Of a stretch of 64,000 bases of DNA, positions 1,851-53,553 are shown piece after piece. A program made the position numbers and the translations under genes. The notes beneath the pieces are model-generated. The model was not told where the DNA came from. It saw only the letters and a list, made by a program, of their open reading frames with translations, and made no database searches. The DNA comes from a virus. Taxonomy: Duplodnaviria > Caudoviricetes. The first letter of the stretch is position 1; every line of letters begins with the position of its first letter. The stretch is from positions 1-64,000 of IMG/VR virus record IMGVR_UViG_3300024331_000007; one strand, 5' to 3'.

Positions 1851-3035
1851 ATGTCAACACCATTATTGGAAAATCGTTGGGCTGATACAAAGAATGCCCT
1901 GCTCGAAGGACTAACAGGAAATCGCAAAACGGTTATGAGTGTAGTCCTAGAGAACACCCGCAAGCAATTGCGTGAAGCTGCTACCGCAGGTTCCACATCT
2001 GCTGGTAACATTGCTACACTTAACCGCGTCATTCTTCCCGTTATTCGACGTGTTATGCCAACCGTTATCGCTAACGAATTGGTCGGCGTACAGCCAATGA
2101 CAGGTCCAGTCGGTCAGATTCAGACTCTCCGTGTTCGTTACGGACAGACTGATAATGTCACTGCTCCTTATCCTTGGAACACAAGCGTAACAGCGGGTGA
2201 TGAAGCCCTATCCCCATTCAAGATTGCAACAGCCTACTCTGGTAGCTCCACAACAGGACAGGCAGATTGGACAGCAAACTTGGAAGGTCAGGCAGGTAAC
2301 AAGATCAATGTTCAGATTCTACGTCAGACAGTAGAAGCTAAGAGCCGTAAGCTCTCCGCTCGCTGGACGTTTGAAGCTGCTCAGGATGCTCAGGCAATGC
2401 ACGGCATCGACATTGAAGCAGAAATCATGGCTGCTCTTGCACAGGAAATTACAGCAGAAATCGATCAGGAAATTCTTGGTTCGCTCTATGCACTTTCTGG
2501 AACAGATCAGACATTCGACCAGTCTTTGGTCAGTGGTACAGCAACATATGTTGGTGACGAGCATGCTGCCTTGGCAATCATGATCAACCGCGCCAGCAAC
2601 TTGATTGCACAGCGTACCCGTCGTGGTGCAGGTAACTGGGCCGTTGTTAGCCCAATTGCATTGACTGTTCTTCAGTCAGCAACCACATCAGCTTTTGCAC
2701 GTACCACAGAAGGTACATTCGAAGCTCCAACAAACACCAAGTTTGTCGGAACATTGAACGGTTCTTTGAAGGTTTACGTCAACGGCTACGCCAATGACTC
2801 CGTGCCAGTTCTAGTCGGCTACAAGGGTTCTTCGGAATCTGACGCAGCAGCCTTCTACTGTCCATACATTCCTTTGATGAGTTCTGGTGTCGTTCTTGAT
2901 CCAGTGACCTTCGAACCTGTTACTAGCTTCTTGACCCGTTATGGATACATCGAGCTAACAAACAGCGCAAGTTCTTTGGGAAATGCTGGCGATTACCTTT
3001 CAAGTATTGCCGTCGCAAATCTTTCTTTCAGTTAA
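1851..3035 (+). CDS. major capsid protein (T4 gp23-like)
   Basis: Motifs VIRRVMPTVIANELVGVQPMTGPVGQI, VEAKSRKLSARWTFEAAQD, AEIMAALAQEITAEIDQEI, FYCPYIPL, TRYG. Confidence 0.97.
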   Translation: MSTPLLENRWADTKNALLEGLTGNRKTVMSVVLENTRKQLREAATAGSTSAGNIATLNRVILPVIRRVMPTVIANELVGVQPMTGPVGQIQTLRVRYGQTDNVTAPYPWNTSVTAGDEALSPFKIATAYSGSSTTGQADWTANLEGQAGNKINVQILRQTVEAKSRKLSARWTFEAAQDAQAMHGIDIEAEIMAALAQEITAEIDQEILGSLYALSGTDQTFDQSLVSGTATYVGDEHAALAIMINRASNLIAQRTRRGAGNWAVVSPIALTVLQSATTSAFARTTEGTFEAPTNTKFVGTLNGSLKVYVNGYANDSVPVLVGYKGSSESDAAAFYCPYIPLMSSGVVLDPVTFEPVTSFLTRYGYIELTNSASSLGNAGDYLSSIAVANLSFS

Positions 3036-8213: not shown

Positions 8214-8289
8214 TGGTTGCGGGGAGAGGATTTGCACCTCTGTCTCTGAGGTTATGAGCCTAGTGTATGACCTACGCTACCACCCCGCT
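8214..8289 (-). tRNA. initiator-like tRNA-Met (CAT)
   Basis: AGCGGGG.../CCCCGCA with 1:72 mismatch, CT-CAT-AA, CCA. Confidence 0.8.
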
Positions 8290-10783: not shown

Positions 10784-11089
10784 TTAAACGGAGAATGAAG
10801 AACCACATCCACAACTTTTAACAACATGTGGGTTGACAATATTGAAACCTTGTCGCATCAGTGTTTCTTCATAATCCAAAGTCACATCTTTCAAATATAC
10901 ATCTGATTTCGGGTCTACATAGACCTTAATTCCATTTGACTCTAACACGAGGTCTTTTTCTCTCTCAGTGTCAAGTTGAAATACATATGACAAACCTGAA
11001 CAGCCACCGCCTCTTACTCCAATCCGCAATGCTTTACCTTCTGGTACGATGCGAGAAATGTGTTTCCATGCTGCGTCTGTTATATTCAT
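10784..11089 (-). CDS. iscA: A-type iron-sulfur carrier (HesB/IscA/ErpA family)
   Basis: GGGCSGLSY and SCGCGSSF signature motifs. Confidence 0.95.
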   Translation of the reverse strand: MNITDAAWKHISRIVPEGKALRIGVRGGGCSGLSYVFQLDTEREKDLVLESNGIKVYVDPKSDVYLKDVTLDYEETLMRQGFNIVNPHVVKSCGCGSSFSV

Positions 11090-11095
11090 AATTTT

Positions 11096-11191
11096 TGGCG
11101 GTGAGTGTGAGATTCGAACTCACGAACCCTGTTTTTAGCAGGGTTACTACTTTTCCAGAGTAGCCGCATCATCCATCTCGCGCAACTCACC
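11096..11191 (-). tRNA. tRNA-Ser (GGA)
   Basis: CT-GGA-AA, variable arm, GCCA. Confidence 0.9.
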
Positions 11192-11199
11192 AAAACTTT

Positions 11200-11222
11200 T
11201 GGCGGAAAATAAATGAGTCGAA
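11200..11222 (-). pseudogene. tRNA 3' remnant (T-loop to CCA)
   Basis: Minus strand TTCGACT-CATTT-ATTTTCC-G-CCA with no 5' part. Confidence 0.6.
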
Positions 11223-11248
11223 ATTGAAGTTTCCGACTAAATACCTTC

Positions 11249-11878
11249 ATGCCGAATTTTACTACTCAACGATGCGCAGTATGCTTTTGCGAATTTAAAA
11301 GAACTACAAAAGATTCCGCATCTGCGCGTCTAAAAAATTGTGGGGAATCATATTGTTCCCGAAAATGTTTTGGTCTATCAATTCAAACCAAAGTTACTAT
11401 TTCTTGTACTAATTGCCAAAAACAAATTTACAAGATTGAGTCCCAACTGCGAAAAAGTGGCAACAATTTTTGTTCTCGCTCATGCGCCGCCACATACAAT
11501 AATACTCACAAAACTTACGGAACACGTCGATCAAAACTTGAAGTCTTTCTGGAATCTCAAATTCGAGAAGCCTATCCAAACTTGAAACTTCTGTGTAACG
11601 ACAAAACCGCTATTAATTCAGAACTCGATTTCTACTTTCCAGATTTGAATCTTGCTATCGAGTTAAATGGAATCCTTCATTTCGAACCCATCTACGGCCA
11701 TAACAAGTTGGATCAAATTCAATCAAATGACAACAAAAAAGCGTTTCTGTGCAACCAGAATCAAATAAATCTTGCAGTTCTTGATACATCTATGCATAAA
11801 AATTGTAGTCAGGCCGTTAGAACTAAGTTTTGGTCTATTGTTCGTTCTTTGCTTGACTCAAATATGGCGGAAGGCTGA
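11249..11878 (+). CDS. Cys-rich Vsr/DUF559-like PD-(D/E)XK endonuclease, copy 1
   Basis: CxxC/FCSRSC repeats, then SELDFYFP..LAIELNGILHF; stop lies inside tRNA-Ser(GCT). Confidence 0.75.
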   Translation: MPNFTTQRCAVCFCEFKRTTKDSASARLKNCGESYCSRKCFGLSIQTKVTISCTNCQKQIYKIESQLRKSGNNFCSRSCAATYNNTHKTYGTRRSKLEVFLESQIREAYPNLKLLCNDKTAINSELDFYFPDLNLAIELNGILHFEPIYGHNKLDQIQSNDNKKAFLCNQNQINLAVLDTSMHKNCSQAVRTKFWSIVRSLLDSNMAEG

Positions 11879-11956
11879 GAGCACGATTCCCAATGCCGCT
11901 AAGCGGCATCAATCTGTTTAGCAAACAGTTCCAGACACCCTTCTGGTTAACCTTCC
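11865..11956 (-). tRNA. tRNA-Ser (GCT)
   Basis: TT-GCT-AA, variable arm, GCCA. Confidence 0.9.
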
Positions 11957-12059
11957 ATATATCTATTTAGCAACTCGCCACAGTGTCGGGAATATTACCG
12001 ATCATTGCAACTTTAAACAGGGCCGACTTCTCTCGCTTGTCCTGTAAGTTAGCTAAAAT

Positions 12060-12137
12060 TGGTGCGTGGAGTGGGCCTCGAACCCACAAACCGTTAGCTC
12101 TCGACCAACGAGGTATGCCAATTCCCATCACCCACGC
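12060..12137 (-). tRNA. tRNA-Leu (GAG), atypical short variable loop
   Basis: GTTGG-TC GAG AG-CTAAC; A73; CCA. Confidence 0.7.
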
Positions 12138-12147
12138 AAAACTTTTC

Positions 12148-12269
12148 GGAACATACCGCGACGGGAATCGCACCCGCATTTGTTACGCAACTACTGTGCA
12201 TCACTTTGTTATTTCTTGCCCCGGTTTTTTAGACCAGCGCCTCTACTTTTCGGCTACACAGTACGTTCC
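12148..12269 (-). ncRNA. tRNA-like RNA, AAA anticodon, 13-bp acceptor helix, long variable insert, no CCA
   Basis: GGAACGTACTGTG/CGCGGTATGTTCC; D, anticodon and T arms recognisable. Confidence 0.65.
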
Positions 12270-12598
12270 AAACTAAACTTTCTACTGGCAGAATTGCAAT
12301 AAAACTGGTCAGTAGTAGAGCGACGATTTATATTAGCATTGCCGACTACTCAGTACATCATTGGGCTTTTCAGTCGCTCTCGTTCCTACTCAGTTGTTCC
12401 CAATTTCTCTTTTTCATACAGCAAAGCGGTGGAAGTCGTCAGGCTATTTTTCTCCCAATATCATTGATGTACGGTGGATCAAGCAACACAGCATATTCAA
12501 CATATATACTCTTGAGTCGCAGGTTATACAACCGTATTGTGTTGCCCATTTGATTATTCGTTCAAGGTTTATTAGTTCCTTGATTGTACATCAAACTT

Positions 12599-12674
12599 TG
12601 GAGGCGCAAGGGGGAATCGAACCCATCGATGGACAATTTTGCAGACTGCCGCCTTACCACTTGGCTATTGCGCC
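12599..12674 (-). tRNA. tRNA-Cys (GCA)
   Basis: CT-GCA-AA, U73, CCA. Confidence 0.9.
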
Positions 12675-12684
12675 TTGTTAAAAT

Positions 12685-12759
12685 TGGAGGTCGGGGTGAG
12701 AATCGAACTCACGAATAAAGGCTTTGCAGGCCCTTGCATTACCACTTTGCTACCCAACC
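12685..12759 (-). tRNA. tRNA-Cys (GCA)
   Basis: CT-GCA-AA, U73, CCA. Confidence 0.9.
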
Positions 12760-12765
12760 AAAAAC

Positions 12766-13020
12766 TTAATTGCCGCTGATTGTGCTTATGATAAATCCTG
12801 CAACAGACACACTCAGCATCAAAACGATAAGTACAATTTCTATTCCACCGATCAATGCAATCGCAAAATAAACTGCAACTGCGAGAAGCGCATGCCATTC
12901 ACCAGCAGGAATCAGGGATGCGACATAAGGTGCTAACTTGAAAAACAAAAGGTGAATCGTGTACCACACAGGAACAACTGCAATACCAATCGCCAGAAAC
13001 AGCTTCAATAGACTTTTCAT
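12766..13020 (-). CDS. small membrane protein
   Basis: Three hydrophobic segments. Confidence 0.6.
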   Translation of the reverse strand: MKSLLKLFLAIGIAVVPVWYTIHLLFFKLAPYVASLIPAGEWHALLAVAVYFAIALIGGIEIVLIVLMLSVSVAGFIISTISGN

Positions 13021-13036
13021 AATCATCCTTTCAAGA

Positions 13037-13110
13037 TGGAGCGGAATACGAGGCTCGAACTCGTGACTACAGACTGGCAATCTATCATGTTACCACTACA
13101 CTAATTCCGC
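13037..13110 (-). tRNA. tRNA-Gly (GCC)
   Basis: GCGGAAT/ATTCCGC, TT-GCC-AG, U73. Confidence 0.9.
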
Positions 13111-13119
13111 GTTAAGTCT

Positions 13120-13148
13120 ATTATACTACTTTCGGTTCCTCTTTGCAA
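13120..13148 (-). promoter_or_regulatory. sigma70-type promoter
   Basis: TTGCAA-17 nt-TATAAT just upstream of tRNA-Gly. Confidence 0.75.
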
Positions 13149-13271
13149 TCAAATTCTTTGCCAATTTTCGGGCTTCTGGACCTAATCTTTTGGTCAACAT
13201 ACGACGAATAGACTCTTTTGGTTGCTTTGACAGATGAGCCAAAATTGCTGCTTCTAGAATTGTGATTGTTG

Positions 13272-16245: not shown

Positions 16246-16320
16246 TGGTGGATACGGGGAGACTCGAACTCCATCTTGTTCTTTGCGAAAGAACTGCTCG
16301 CCCAATTGAGCTACCGACCC
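16246..16320 (-). tRNA. tRNA-Ala (CGC)
   Basis: G3:U70, TT-CGC-AA; two acceptor mismatches. Confidence 0.8.
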
Positions 16321-27104: not shown

Positions 27105-27949
27105 GTGTTCCTTTCTTAACCAACACGAACCACAGCATTGCGATTTATATTTGGACCCCATTCAGGTGTGTAGTAACCATCAAAATGCTTTTTCGTGATT
27201 TTTGTTACGTGTGATACGGCCTCTGGATAATCAGTTCCTCCAGTAATCACAGTCGCATCCTGCGGCATCTTTTGCAATTCCAAAATCAATTCGCCAACTG
27301 TCATATTTCACCGCTTTCACTTTCCAAAATGTTCAGAACTTTTTCTTCGACGGCAAGGATTGGACACCATTTCGGAATGGGATTGATTTCACTGTCCCAT
27401 TCAACGTAACCAGAAGTTCCACGGAAGCCGTGTTCCGCTTTTTTGTCAGGTTTCAGTTTACAAAAATAGTCTGTAGCATATCCAGAACCCGGCGTGTGTG
27501 CTGAACCAGCGTAAGGACAGCAAATATTGTCATCTCCGTTGTTAACGCATCGATCAATGTTTATAACAATTTTTGCCACAGTAAGCCTTTCAAGATTCTA
27601 ATTTTTTCAGAAGCTTTTCTTGAATATCCAACCAAGCATATTTCCATGATTCTTCAATTGATACTGTCGATGATCCCAATAAGGTTCTCGGTCTACCAAA
27701 CCAATTTGTTTTCGGAGTTTCGGTGTGGATTTCCCACTGAATGCCAAATATATCTGGGCGACATTTGGCATCAGGATAGATCATCTTGACATTTTCTTCA
27801 TCTGTCATAATTGATTATATCACACAAAACACCAAAGGCCAGCTAAATTTTAGCTGACCAGCATGGAACAGTTTCGAACCAATTACAGTGTAAACATCAA
27901 TAAAGTTTGTATTTAATACACTGAGATTACATGTATTATATTGACACCC

Positions 27950-28856
27950 GATGGATTATGCCGTCTCTTGCGAAGACCGTCCGTGAGGACTTCGGTTTCC
28001 CATCACATCCACTAAGCCCTTTATTCAAGGTATCCTAGTCTGTCAACATCGTCGCCTTTTTTGAAGTCAGGCAGTGGACTTGTCTGATAAGGTTATTCTA
28101 CGCTCTCCATCCCGTCTGTTTTGCGAACAGTTCGAAGCCGCTAAGCCCCTACGAAATTTCCTGCACAAACTATCGCAACCTTGCGAGTCTTGATAGACTT
28201 GATTCTCTTGCGAGTCAAGCATTAGACGATTTTCGCCTTATCACGGAGCAGACTTTGCTTTTTGTAAGAAACAGTCAGAATCGAACTGACTACCCTCTGT
28301 TTAATAGACAGATGCTCTACCAATTGAGCTTTGTTTGCAACCCACATCATGTGCTGCTCCAGTTGCCAAGCCAGATTTTGTCCAGCCTGATACAACACAT
28401 GACATACCTTTCTTCTGCGGAATACTCAGTGGTACTTCACGAAAAATGTGCTTGCGCCCATTCTCCGTTCATACTGCATTTCAGCCCTAGCTTGCGAAGG
28501 CTCAGACCAAAACACTACCCTTTCCATTACGGAATAACAAGTTGATACGATAGGAAGACAGCATCACCTGTTTCTTTTCAATTGCCAAAGTTCCCTATCC
28601 CGAAGGCGTCGGCTTATAAACAATTGTTCTTTCCCTATCACTTGCGTCCTCTTTACAACCACCGCTTTTTTCAGTGATCGCCGTCTCGCGACGGATGGGA
28701 GGCTTGCATAGACGGACTAATTGCTTAGCGCAAGTGCGTAGGCTTCCTTGCTTTGGGCACCTCACGGTGCTTATCCTAATGGGGCTATGCCCCCAATCTT
28801 GTTTTCAAACATCTTTGCGAATCACCATATGATTCGGTTGCGTCAACTCAGCAACA
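27950..28856 (-). ncRNA. large structured RNA, GOLLD-like, with embedded tRNA-like domain
   Basis: ~900 nt with no credible ORF, many GCAA/GAAA/GTGA/GCGA-capped hairpins, own promoter, tRNA-cluster context. Confidence 0.65.
28266..28338 (-). tRNA. tRNA-Asn-like (ATT) inside the large RNA, no CCA
   Basis: AGCTCAATTGGTAGAGC D arm, TCTGT-CT ATT AA-ACAGA, GTTCGATTC. Confidence 0.65.
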
Positions 28857-34653: not shown

Positions 34654-34737
34654 TGGTAACGTAGAAGGGGATCGAACCCTCTTGTCCGAAGACGCCAGAT
34701 TGAAAGTCTGGTGACCTGCCAATTAGTCATCTACGTC
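34654..34737 (-). tRNA. tRNA-Glu (TTC) with long variable arm
   Basis: Extra arm GTC-TTCG-GAC. Confidence 0.85.
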
Positions 34738-35217: not shown

Positions 35218-35302
35218 TGGCAGGGGTGACAGGGATCGAACCTGCTATGAGTTTCCTCGCCAGTTTTGGAGACTGGTGTCGTACCATTACGACTACACCC
35301 CT
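35218..35302 (-). tRNA. tRNA-Trp (CCA) with long variable arm
   Basis: CT-CCA-AA, G73; extra arm GAG-GAAA-CTC. Confidence 0.85.
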
Positions 35303-35312
35303 ATAAAATCTA

Positions 35313-35402
35313 TGGCGGGAGATGAAGGACTTGAACCTTCGGTGTGAGATTTATCTCATTCGGGTTTGGAGTCCGATGCTGTCGCCGCTGAGCCAATCTC
35401 CC
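35313..35402 (-). tRNA. tRNA-Trp (CCA) with long variable arm, Tyr-like body
   Basis: CT-CCA-AA; TGAGAT-AA-ATCTCA arm. Confidence 0.8.
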
Positions 35403-52674: not shown

Positions 52675-53113
52675 TCTCGCCAACAAGTTTGATCTTGTCC
52701 AGAATCACATCAATATTGATTGTGTTCCAAACACCGGGATGCAACGGTTTTGGATATTTGTCTAACTCTGCCCAAGCATATCCGCTATGTTCTGAGTTTA
52801 AGATAGGTATGAACTCATTTCGAATCACGAAAATGAAAGAATGGTATGTGAACTCTTCATCCATGCTGGTAAAGGTTTCCAGAGGAATATGTTTCAGGAT
52901 AGTCGGATATGATCCTAATTCTTCAGACAATTCTCTGTGAAGCCCAGTCATAGTGTTCTCGTCTGAATGCAGTTTTCCACCGGGCATCCCCCATGTTTCT
53001 TTTGTGCGTGTGTTATTACGCAATAGAAATAGGAATCGTCTGGTGGTTAAACTGTAGAATAGAACACCCGCTGCAATCATTAGTATGCAATCTTCTTTTG
53101 CGATTTTGACCAT
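52664..53113 (-). CDS. Nudix hydrolase
   Basis: PGGKLHSDENTMTGLHRELSEELG. Confidence 0.88.
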   Translation of the reverse strand: MVKIAKEDCILMIAAGVLFYSLTTRRFLFLLRNNTRTKETWGMPGGKLHSDENTMTGLHRELSEELGSYPTILKHIPLETFTSMDEEFTYHSFIFVIRNEFIPILNSEHSGYAWAELDKYPKPLHPGVWNTINIDVILDKIKLVGEIIS

Positions 53114-53553
53114 TCCTGAAAACTGGCTCTCGCTTCTCGTCCAAGCAACTTAACAGTTGGTAACGTTCTTGCTTCTGGCTTCTTTCTGAACTCTTTGTAG
53201 ATGAACTCATCATCAAAACCAATTAACGCTGCTTCTGCCGCGCTACATCCATAGTAAATCTTATCCAATCTAGCCCAATAACAAGCAGCCAAACACATCG
53301 GGCACGGTTCACAGCTTGTATAAATCTCACAACCCTTCAGAGAAAAGTCACCAAGAATCTGGCAGGCCATACGGATAGCTACAATTTCTGCATGGGCAGT
53401 TGGATCAAATCTTGATGTGACTGAGTTTGATCCATAGGCAATGATTTCGCCGTCCTTCACAATAACTGCTCCGAAAGGACCACCTTGATTTGAAAGTACA
53501 TTGCGAGTAGCCAGAGCAATTGCTTTACGCATGTAGTCTGATTTGTTCTGCAT
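53080..53553 (-). CDS. nucleoside/guanine deaminase (CDA fold)
   Basis: GGPFGAVIV, HAEIVAIR, CEPCPMC. Confidence 0.92.
   Translation of the reverse strand: MQNKSDYMRKAIALATRNVLSNQGGPFGAVIVKDGEIIAYGSNSVTSRFDPTAHAEIVAIRMACQILGDFSLKGCEIYTSCEPCPMCLAACYWARLDKIYYGCSAAEAALIGFDDEFIYKEFRKKPEARTLPTVKLLGREARASFQEWSKSQKKIAY

What the first reader, a model, noticed from the sequence alone, without database searches (positions are those of the whole stretch)
12148..12269. tRNA-like RNA with AAA anticodon and 13-bp acceptor helix
Seen: recognisable D arm (GCC-GAAAAGTAGA-GGC), CTGGT-CT AAA AA-ACCGG and T arm (GCGGG-TGCGATT-CCCGT), with a ~43-nt variable insert. The acceptor is extended to GGAACGTACTGTG/CGCGGTATGTTCC and lacks CCA. 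A34 anticodons other than Arg(ACG) are rare in bacteria. Inference: a mimic or an unusual precursor needing trimming on both strands.
Basis: partly seen in the sequence, partly recalled or inferred. Interest (0 to 1): 0.65.

Follow-up and report, generated by a model that had tools for sequence, protein, structure and literature searches.

The report
Clamped, oversized tRNA-like gene in phage
A giant soil phage's block of tRNA genes holds a real but very irregular tRNA-shaped gene (AAA anticodon, 43 extra bases, ends zipped into a 16-pair helix, no CCA tail). It is probably not an ordinary working tRNA, and its job is unproven.

Summary
On the minus strand at 12148-12269 there is a full cloverleaf that Rfam's tRNA model scores at 37.6 bits (cut-off 29). 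It lies in register inside a block of about 45 tRNA genes of a 360-kb uncultured soil phage.

The closing helix is longer than reported: 16 pairs (12145-12272), against at most 2 extra pairs in the phage's 52 other tRNAs. The element departs from its neighbours on four counts: no encoded CCA, no GG in the D loop, G at T-loop position 55, and a 43-nt A-rich variable region where the next longest is 22 nt.

Four relatives with readable arrays lack it, and each has a normal tRNA-Phe(GAA) that this phage lacks. One 151-nt metagenome contig holds a copy about 88% identical. That copy keeps the interior stems and the insert length, but its anticodon is AAG. It also rules out the alternative intron reading.

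No RNA data exist. My best reading (0.38) is a maintained tRNA-derived RNA that does not decode normally. Rivals are a decaying pseudogene (0.30) and a true UUU-reading tRNA (0.25). I class it as a new variant of a known kind. The same scan has already reported other irregular phage tRNA-like genes, including two in this array.

The parts
12145..12272 (-). Whole element including the 16-bp closing (leader-trailer plus acceptor) helix
   Evidence: MFE fold with flanks pairs UUUGGAACGUACUGUG with CGCGGUAUGUUCCGAA. The extension beyond the acceptor is 9 bp, against at most 2 bp in 52 other tRNAs. Homology in the X3 contig stops at 12272, the base of the helix.
12153..12263 (-). tRNA-model match: 7-bp acceptor (12257-12263 with 12154-12160) and discriminator U (12153)
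   Evidence: RF00005 at 37.6 bits, model positions 1-71.
12239..12254 (-). D arm: 3-bp stem GCC/GGC and a 10-nt loop without GG
   Evidence: Sequence and Rfam alignment. 48 of 52 other tRNAs have GG in the D loop.
12221..12237 (-). Anticodon arm: 5-bp stem and loop CUAAAAA (U33, anticodon AAA at 12228-12230, A37, A38)
   Evidence: The X3 homolog has 12228 T>C on the plus strand, which is A36>G and gives anticodon AAG.
12178..12220 (-). 43-nt A-rich insert in the variable-region position
   Evidence: Rfam alignment places it between model positions 44 and 45. It contains 19 A out of 43 and is not repeated elsewhere in the genome or in fetched loci. The longest variable region in other tRNAs here is 22 nt. 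In X3 the length is kept, but 6 substitutions break the only predicted internal hairpin.
12161..12177 (-). T arm: GCGGG/CCCGU stem and loop UGCGAUU (G at position 55)
   Evidence: 49 of 52 other tRNAs start the T loop with UUC.
12272..12331 (-). Conserved 60-nt element directly 5' of the gene, with a hairpin at 12282-12315 (loop UUUUAUUGCAAUU); possibly a promoter or 5' leader module
   Evidence: Identical in contigs of three other runs (X2, X4, X5), while the next 125 nt carry 12 differences. A homologous stretch with a covarying stem and the same loop lies in relative G038 (L086 4501-4619). There a protein ORF follows instead.
12060..12137 (-). Next gene, 10 nt downstream: irregular tRNA-Leu(GAG) with CCA; likely the same transcript
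   Evidence: Called by ARAGORN. It is not reported by RF00005 at E<=1 and gives only a sub-threshold tRNA-Sec match.

Best explanation
This is a genuine tRNA-derived gene on the minus strand. It was probably born from a long-variable-arm (class II, Leu-like) phage tRNA, and it is co-transcribed with the surrounding tRNA block.

The transcript folds into a cloverleaf whose ends are clamped by a 16-bp leader-trailer helix. Four things make it most likely that it is NOT matured into a standard aminoacyl-tRNA: the clamp, the missing CCA, the loss of the D-loop/T-loop elbow contacts (U19, G55), and a floppy 43-nt A-rich linker.

I think it is kept as a tRNA-shaped structural RNA. Possible roles are a processing or punctuation module for RNase P-type enzymes, or a decoy for tRNA-binding or tRNA-cutting proteins. 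In this it resembles the other non-decoding tRNA look-alikes in the same array.

Shown: tRNA-family membership, the anatomy, its outlier status within the genome, and a partial homolog with a different anticodon. Inferred: co-transcription, lack of aminoacylation, and the structural role.
For: 1. It belongs to the tRNA family and sits in register in the array: RF00005 37.6 bits, same strand, 10 nt from the next tRNA. ARAGORN calls it a tRNA once the insert is shortened.
2. The closing helix is 16 bp, 9 bp beyond the acceptor, against at most 2 bp in 52 other tRNAs.
3. It fails four near-universal features of this phage's own tRNAs: CCA is encoded in 48 of 52, the T loop starts UUC in 49 of 52, GG is in the D loop in 48 of 52, and the longest other variable region is 22 nt. 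G18-Psi55 and G19-C56 are the elbow contacts of the L-shape (PMC7609411).
4. All 20 canonical stem pairs are intact (17 Watson-Crick, 3 G-U) while invariant loop bases are lost. This is the pattern expected if the fold is selected but tRNA function is not.
5. The X3 contig is about 88% identical. It has no listed change in the D or anticodon stems and no indel in the 43-nt insert, but it changes anticodon base 36 (AAA to AAG).
6. The X4 fragment carries 4 substitutions in 5' stem strands. All are transitions that still pair with the partner seen in this phage.
7. The same array holds other tRNA-shaped non-decoders: two with sealed anticodon arms (24431-24524 and 25113-25198), a tRNA-like with a degenerate anticodon arm (21611-21688), and a CCA-less tRNA inside GOLLD.
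8. The phage carries its own RNase P RNA.
Against: - There is no expression or end-mapping data.
- It is absent from the arrays of four relatives (G001, G002, G038, G039), so it is not a conserved core function.
- The anticodon loop keeps a perfect 7-nt tRNA format (U33, A37) in both copies, which a pure structural mimic would not need.
- The stem-conservation statistics are weak. Seven interior changes avoiding 16 stem positions has p of about 0.18 by my estimate, and the 3' strand of the helix is unseen in both homologs.
- No partner protein or specific role is identified.
Confidence: 0.38

Rival explanations
1. It is a decaying pseudogene. A phage tRNA (Leu-AAG-like) took a 43-nt insertion in its variable region and lost function. 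It is now drifting in an array that homing endonucleases keep reshuffling.
For: - It is absent from four relatives' arrays, and the syntenic slot in G038 holds a protein ORF plus tRNA-Gly instead.
- Invariant tRNA bases are lost (U19, G55), there is no CCA, and the discriminator is U.
- The anticodon differs between the two known copies.
- The insert is A-rich, its only predicted hairpin is not conserved, and the upstream region has no stable fold.
- HNH and homing endonuclease genes lie throughout the array.
- In another X3 contig, the Leu(GAG) and Cys homologs are joined by 347 unrelated letters.
Against: - All 20 stem pairs are intact, and 9 further leader-trailer pairs are unique among 53 tRNA-type genes.
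- The insert length is unchanged at about 12% divergence, and the stem substitutions seen in X4 all preserve pairing.
- Other aberrant tRNAs of this array are kept unchanged in G038, for example Ala-CGC with the same mispaired acceptor. Oddity here therefore does not equal decay.
Confidence: 0.3
2. It is a working tRNA with anticodon AAA, or IAA after deamination. It would be cut out of the clamp by RNase P and a 3' nuclease, receive CCA from the host enzyme, and read UUU. It would replace the tRNA-Phe(GAA) that this phage lacks.
For: - ARAGORN finds no tRNA-Phe in the 360-kb record, while G001, G002, G038 and G039 each have tRNA-Phe(GAA).
- UUU makes up 61% of Phe codons in 282 long ORFs.
- The loop CUAAAAA is one base away from the Phe loop CUGAAAA and has U33, A37 and A38.
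- A34 tRNAs recur in this phage group: Leu-AAG with CCA in G038 and Ala-AGC in G001.
- The phage encodes a TadA-like deaminase at 53080-53553 and its own RNase P RNA.
- Four other tRNA-type genes here also lack CCA.
Against: - The homolog has AAG, so codon identity is not conserved. With a Leu-type body, AAA would misread Phe codons, and IAA would also read UUA (Leu).
- The discriminator is U73, not the A73 of bacterial Phe and Leu tRNAs (textbook knowledge).
- The elbow contacts are lost.
- The 43-nt variable region is about twice the length of any tRNA in this genome.
- The 16-bp clamp buries both processing sites.
- No CCA-adding enzyme is encoded in the phage record.
Confidence: 0.25
3. 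It is an intron-bearing tRNA. ARAGORN's relaxed reading is tRNA-Ile(GAU) with a 29-nt intron at position 32/33 and a 15-nt variable arm.
For: ARAGORN with introns allowed and a lowered threshold gives this fold. Relatives carry tRNAs with inserts of about 32-38 nt at other sites: G002 has one of 116 nt and G039 one of 112 nt.
Against: - It needs a G.A mismatch in the anticodon stem, G37 after a U36, and a non-canonical intron site.
- In the X3 homolog the would-be loop loses U33 and the anticodon becomes GCU, whereas the AAA/AAG hairpin stays perfect.
- The Rfam alignment prefers the AAA hairpin.
- No RtcB ligase is found in the phage.
Confidence: 0.03
4. It is a mobile tRNA-like cassette bounded by 16-bp imperfect inverted repeats, and the 'clamp' helix is simply its terminal repeats.
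For: - Homology in X3 ends exactly at the outer base of the helix (12272), and that contig's 37 further bases do not match the spacer that X2, X4 and X5 share.
- Its presence or absence among relatives is patchy.
Against: - There is only one copy in the genome, and no similar repeats elsewhere.
- No transposase or target duplication was seen.
- X2, X4 and X5 keep GGAAC contiguous with the upstream spacer.
Confidence: 0.04

Closest known systems
Class II (long-variable-arm) phage or bacterial tRNA-Leu, such as tRNA-Leu(AAG) of relative G038 (L086 3597-3682) and tRNA-Leu(UAG) of this phage (15675-15758)
   Same: - It has a 3-bp D stem with a loop of about 10 nt, and extra sequence at the variable-arm position.
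- The anticodon arm GCUGGU-CUAAAAA-ACCGGG closely resembles Leu(UAG) GCUGGU-CUUAGAA-GCCAGU and G038's Leu(AAG) arm.
- The X3 homolog has the Leu anticodon AAG.
- The best hits of a model built from the element are mostly class II Leu tRNAs.
   Different: - The variable region is 43 nt with no conserved stem, against 12-22 nt.
- The discriminator is U73 instead of A73, there is no CCA, and the elbow bases are U19 and G55.
- It has a 16-bp closing helix.
- The model scores against real Leu tRNAs are only 19-27 bits, so no parent gene can be named.
Irregular tRNAs and allo-tRNAs from soil metagenomes and phages (Mukai et al. 2017, PMC5389517), and the sealed-anticodon tRNA mimics of this same array (24431-24524 and 25113-25198)
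   Same: These are tRNA-shaped genes inside tRNA polycistrons of soil origin, with non-standard arms and unpredictable anticodons. For them, non-translational roles are considered.
   Different: - Allo-tRNAs are defined by 8/4 or 9/3 acceptor/T geometry, whereas this element has a 5-bp T stem.
- The sealed mimics keep CCA, GG and UUC and have no anticodon loop. This element keeps the loop and loses the other three.
CCA-less phage tRNA precursors (the T4 Pro-Ser type, which need a 3' nuclease and CCA addition before RNase P acts); recalled from the literature, not re-read here
   Same: The tRNA gene lacks CCA, sits in a phage cluster directly upstream of another tRNA, and would depend on host 3' trimming and CCA addition.
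   Different: T4 precursors have canonical elbows and variable loops, and no long leader-trailer helix.
tRNA-like processing modules (mascRNA at the MALAT1 3' end, plant mitochondrial t-elements) and the tRNA embedded in GOLLD RNA (this window, 28266-28338)
   Same: These are tRNA-shaped folds without an encoded CCA, embedded in longer transcripts. They are used, or thought to be used, as RNase P/Z recognition signals and not as decoders. The GOLLD example lies 16 kb away in the same array.
   Different: No processing data exist here. Those modules usually have a degenerate anticodon arm, while here the anticodon arm is the best-preserved part.

Membership tests
tRNA (Rfam RF00005) | Covariance-model score at or above the curated gathering score | tested here: met
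   37.6 bits against 29; full model 1-71 aligned.
tRNA (Rfam RF00005) | Four-arm cloverleaf with a 7-nt anticodon loop, U33 and a purine at 37 | tested here: met
   Acceptor 7 bp, D stem 3 bp, anticodon stem 5 bp, T stem 5 bp; loop CUAAAAA.
tRNA (functional decoder) | Elbow nucleotides G18 G19 and U54 U55 C56 | tested here: not met
   The D loop AAAAGUAG has no GG, and the T loop is UGCGAUU (G55). 48 of 52 and 49 of 52 genomic tRNAs keep these features.
tRNA (functional decoder) | Variable region of 4-5 nt (class I) or a structured arm of 10 nt or more (class II); the longest of this phage's own tRNAs is 22 nt | tested here: not met
   The region is 43 nt. Only a weak hairpin is predicted, and it is broken in the X3 homolog. 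Class definitions are from PMC7609411.
tRNA (functional decoder) | Mature 3' CCA, 5' end made by RNase P, aminoacylation | not testable with these tools
   CCA is not encoded. No CCA-adding enzyme is in the phage record. No RNA run is listed.
tRNA-Phe | Anticodon GAA and discriminator A73 (bacterial PheRS identity set; textbook knowledge) | tested here: not met
   The anticodon is AAA and the discriminator is U. The homolog has AAG.
Class II tRNA-Leu | Long variable arm, 3-bp D stem, A73 | tested here: inconclusive
   The D arm and the anticodon arm are Leu-like, and the homolog's anticodon is AAG. However, the discriminator is U73, the insert is unstructured, and the model scores are only 19-27 bits.
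Allo-tRNA / tRNA-Sec type (8/4, 9/3, 8/5) | Acceptor stem plus T stem of 12-13 bp, with a lengthened acceptor and (in allo-tRNAs) a shortened T stem | tested here: inconclusive
   The T stem is 5 bp. ARAGORN draws an 8-bp acceptor on insert-trimmed versions. The mature ends are unknown. The overlapping lower-scoring match to another tRNA-clan model was left out in favour of the tRNA hit.
Intron-containing tRNA | Intron in the anticodon loop (canonical 37/38, or a group I intron) leaving a valid anticodon arm | tested here: not met
   Found only at a relaxed threshold, at position 32/33 and with a G.A mismatch. The reading is destroyed in the X3 homolog.
YrlA-type Y RNA (Rfam RF02553) with Ro60 | tRNA-like domain on a long closing stem, next to or together with a Ro60/TROVE gene | tested here: not met
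   No Rfam match other than tRNA at E<=1 to 10. No TROVE domain is found in the genome.

The most novel reading that the evidence does not exclude
The phage has replaced its tRNA-Phe(GAA) with a remodelled, class-II-bodied tRNA carrying anticodon AAA. This tRNA would be released from a 16-bp clamp by the phage's own RNase P and possibly edited by the phage's TadA-like deaminase. It would decode UUU with a 43-nt variable region, the largest in any working tRNA. Its altered elbow and loop might let it escape host tRNA-targeting defences.
Probability: 0.15. Interest if true: 0.75.

Novelty: new variant of a known kind. Interest (0 to 1): 0.42.

Why it matters
Large phages carry many tRNA-shaped genes that standard finders skip. 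It is unknown which of them decode, which are decoys or processing signals, and which are debris.

This element combines a preserved anticodon loop with a destroyed elbow, a very long linker and a long clamp helix. It therefore sits between 'tRNA' and 'mimic'.

If it is charged, it would stretch the known structural limits of tRNA and show that A34 in a two-codon box is used by a virus. If it is not charged, it adds a distinct architecture to the non-decoding tRNA look-alikes of phage tRNA arrays. It would also be a natural test substrate for the phage's own RNase P RNA.

Tried and rejected
- **Exact-pattern scans for homologs.** Three patterns found nothing: anticodon arm plus T arm in IMG/VR, the conserved upstream 22-mer in IMG/VR and in JGI metagenomes, and the anticodon arm with N at base 36 in both collections.
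- **Similarity searches.** BLAST and nhmmer of the element against 80 loci of capsid relatives found nothing. blastn of 11000-13200 against 50,697 phage records hit only tRNA-Gly and tRNA-Cys.
- **Single-sequence covariance model R1.** It gave no match in 37 related records. With filters off it gave only generic tRNA-level hits of at most 26.8 bits in the four arrays. A 16.8-bit hit in G038 (L135 1501-1640) was rejected because it has many non-pairs and no T arm.
- **Hairpin-loop pattern.** The scan gave 45 loci, of which only G038 is related.
- **Sequencing runs.** No RNA holder is listed. Only the probable source run holds the whole stretch.
- **T4-type late promoter.** The TATAAAT upstream of the element is not meaningful, because the motif is under-represented in this genome: 81 occurrences against about 137 expected.
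- **Upstream spacer as a structured RNA or small ORF.** The fold z-score is +0.72 and there is no convincing ORF.
- **Insert as a repeated mini-element.** There is no second copy.
- **Parent tRNA by pairwise alignment.** There is no clear nearest neighbour.
- **Partner genes.** No Ro60, RtcB or CCA-adding enzyme genes were found.
- **Earlier notes of this scan, searched by sequence.** Nothing was found.

Full report
**Setting**

The window is the first 64 kb of a 359,890-bp IMG/VR virus record that is estimated to be about 90% complete. It encodes a phage major head protein (1851-3035), a collagen-like tail fibre and a helicase. On the minus strand between 11096 and 37789 lies a block of about 45 tRNA-type genes. 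HNH and homing endonuclease genes are interspersed in it. The block also contains a GOLLD RNA (27918-28405, 194.5 bits) and a class-A RNase P RNA (19454-20103, 118 bits). The finding lies in this block, between tRNA-Cys (12599-12674) and an irregular tRNA-Leu(GAG) (12060-12137).

**Observation**

- Rfam's tRNA model matches 12153-12263(-) at 37.6 bits (cut-off 29; E = 2.5e-4 for the window). All 71 model positions are aligned, and the extra bases fall in the variable-region position.
- ARAGORN skips the element at default settings. It calls tRNA-Phe(aaa) as soon as the insert is trimmed in silico to 4-20 nt, so the insert's length is the only obstacle.
- The 122-nt RNA folds at -39.2 kcal/mol, z = -2.49.
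- With flanks, the closing helix is 16 bp (12145-12272). That is 9 pairs beyond the 7-bp acceptor. The 52 tRNAs that ARAGORN finds in the genome have 0-2 such pairs.

**How it differs from its neighbours**

Of those 52 tRNAs, 48 encode CCA, 49 start the T loop with UUC, and 48 have GG in the D loop. The longest variable region among them is 22 nt.

The element fails on all four. Its 3' side reads U-GUUCC. Its T loop is UGCGAUU, with G at position 55. Its D loop is AAAAGUAG. Its variable region is 43 nt, of which 19 are A. G18-Psi55 and G19-C56 are the contacts that build the tRNA elbow (PMC7609411).

In contrast, all 20 canonical stem pairs are intact, and the anticodon loop CUAAAAA has U33, A37 and A38.

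**Alternative fold**

With introns allowed and a lowered threshold, ARAGORN offers tRNA-Ile(GAU) with a 29-nt intron at position 32/33. This reading needs a G.A pair and G37. The homolog described below rules it out.

**Relatives**

The head protein has more than 590 relatives in IMG/VR at 74-81% identity. A single-sequence covariance model of the element found nothing in 37 of their records, including two near-complete genomes (G001, 374 kb; G002, 318 kb).

With filters off on the tRNA arrays of G001, G002, G038 and G039, the model gave only generic hits of at most 26.8 bits. The best of these were mostly long-variable-arm Leu tRNAs.

G038 is the closest partial relative (IscA-like neighbour gene 76% identical). 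It keeps the local order Gly(GCC)-Cys-...-Leu-Ser(GGA)-IscA. Where this phage has the element, G038 has a protein ORF plus tRNA-Gly(UCC).

All four relatives carry a canonical tRNA-Phe(GAA). ARAGORN finds none in this phage.

The relatives do hold other oversized tRNAs, with inserts of about 32-38 nt at other positions: a 116-nt gene in G002 and a 112-nt gene in G039. Many class-I tRNAs of this phage have added variable-arm hairpins. Irregular tRNA bodies are therefore a trait of the whole group.

**The only homolog data**

Among public runs, only the probable source soil run holds the whole stretch, and none is listed as RNA. Laying contigs of four other runs gave three results.

1. A 151-nt contig in X3 covers 12160-12272 at about 88% identity.
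   - Its listed differences are six substitutions inside the insert (element positions 61-71), one extra A in the D loop, and 12228 T>C. The last is A36>G on the minus strand, so that copy has anticodon AAG.
   - No change is listed in the D or anticodon stems, and there is no indel in the insert.
   - The six insert changes break the only hairpin predicted there.
   - They also turn the loop of the intron reading from UUGAUGC into UAGCUUC, which loses U33.
   - The match stops at 12272, the outer base of the 16-bp helix.
2. Contigs in X2, X4 and X5 cover 12265-12371/12415/12456 at 92-94% identity, and 12272-12331 is identical in all three. An 18-nt overhang in X4 continues into the element's 5' strand. 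It carries four stem substitutions, all of them transitions that still pair with the partner seen here.
3. Another X3 contig joins the Leu(GAG) and Cys homologs with 347 unrelated letters between them.

The element therefore exists in at least two other samples, but it comes and goes among related phages. The statistics are weak. Seven interior changes missing 16 stem positions has p of about 0.18 by my estimate. The 3' strand of the helix is unseen in both homologs.

**Context that bears on function**

- UUU is 61% of Phe codons in 282 long ORFs.
- The phage encodes a TadA-like deaminase at 53080-53553. Its best NCBIfam match is tRNA adenosine(34) deaminase at 76.7 bits, below the equivalog cut-off.
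- The phage has no CCA-adding enzyme, RtcB or Ro60.
- The same array contains two tRNAs whose anticodon loop is replaced by a GAAA-capped hairpin, a further tRNA-like with a degenerate anticodon arm at 21611-21688, and a CCA-less tRNA inside GOLLD.
- The 60 nt directly 5' of the element form a conserved module. Its hairpin has a stem that covaries with the G038 copy and an identical loop. In G038 this module precedes a protein gene, so it looks like a portable promoter or leader.

**Interpretation**

The element is tRNA-derived and real.

- **Maintained tRNA-shaped RNA that is not an ordinary decoder (0.38).** This is my preferred reading. The stems and a unique clamp are kept, while the elbow, CCA and codon identity are not. 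The array already holds other non-decoders.
- **Decaying pseudogene (0.30).** The patchy distribution, the lost invariant bases and the unstructured insert fit this reading. The perfect stems plus nine extra pairs and the unchanged insert length argue against it.
- **True UUU decoder (0.25).** The missing tRNA-Phe, the codon usage, the near-Phe loop, A34 tRNAs in relatives and the TadA-like gene favour this reading. The AAG homolog, U73, the broken elbow and the buried ends argue against it.
- **Minor rivals.** The intron reading (0.03) and a mobile-cassette reading (0.04) complete the list.

**Novelty**

Irregular tRNAs in soil polycistrons and phages are described (PMC5389517). This scan has already reported sealed-anticodon and extra-arm phage tRNAs, including two in this array. 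This particular combination has no match in Rfam beyond tRNA, and no counterpart came up in the one literature search I ran or in the two papers I searched by keyword. I class it as a new variant of a known kind, of moderate interest. The limits are a single full-length copy and the absence of RNA evidence.

Noticed in passing
window 12272-12331 (hairpin 12282-12315), minus strand; L086 4501-4619: A 60-nt element directly upstream of the finding is identical in contigs of three other metagenome runs. It recurs in relative G038 with a covarying 10-11-bp stem and the same loop UUUUAUUGCAAUU, but there it precedes a protein gene. It may be a portable promoter or leader module.
   Followed up: partly
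window 53080-53553 (-): A phage-encoded TadA-like deaminase (Pfam MafB19-deam 78 bits; best NCBIfam match tRNA adenosine(34) deaminase, 76.7 bits, below cut-off). The phage has several A34 tRNA-type genes (Arg-ACG, Asn-AUU, this AAA element).
   Followed up: partly
window 21611-21688 (-): A further tRNA-like gene (RF00005 39.3 bits) that ARAGORN misses. The acceptor, D and T arms are fine, but the anticodon arm is replaced by an A-rich, poorly paired stretch. The 3' end reads UCCG, not CCA.
   Followed up: partly
window 12060-12137 (-): ARAGORN calls the neighbouring 'tRNA-Leu(GAG)' with CCA. It has only a 5-nt variable loop and a 2-bp D stem. The Rfam tRNA model does not report it at E<=1, and it gives only a sub-threshold tRNA-Sec match.
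   Followed up: no
whole record G000; L082, L083, L086, L087: ARAGORN finds no tRNA-Phe(GAA) and no elongator tRNA-Met in this 360-kb phage. Four relatives each carry tRNA-Phe(GAA), and G001, G002 and G039 also carry tRNA-Met.
   Followed up: partly
window 8221-8286 (-): An initiator-like tRNA(CAU) whose T loop is UGCAAAU. Like the finding, it has G instead of U at position 55.
   Followed up: no
window 24214-24296, 34654-34737, 35218-35302, 35313-35402; genome 174020-174102: Class-I tRNAs (Gly-UCC, Glu-UUC, two Trp, Thr-UGU) carry added variable regions of 12-19 nt, drawn as small hairpins in all but Thr. Relatives show the same for Lys, Cys, Asn, Thr and Ile.
   Followed up: no
L082 10684-10799 (G002) and L087 2713-2824 (G039): Two other oversized tRNAs with CCA are found in relatives. 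One is 116 nt with an insert of about 32 nt inside the anticodon loop plus a long variable arm (possible GAA anticodon). The other is 112 nt with an insert of about 37 nt between the D and anticodon arms. Neither is homologous to the finding.
   Followed up: partly
window 16250-16320 (-) and L086 8139-8209: A CCA-less tRNA-Ala(CGC) with two mispaired acceptor positions is kept with the same defects in relative G038. Aberrant tRNAs in this array can therefore be conserved.
   Followed up: no
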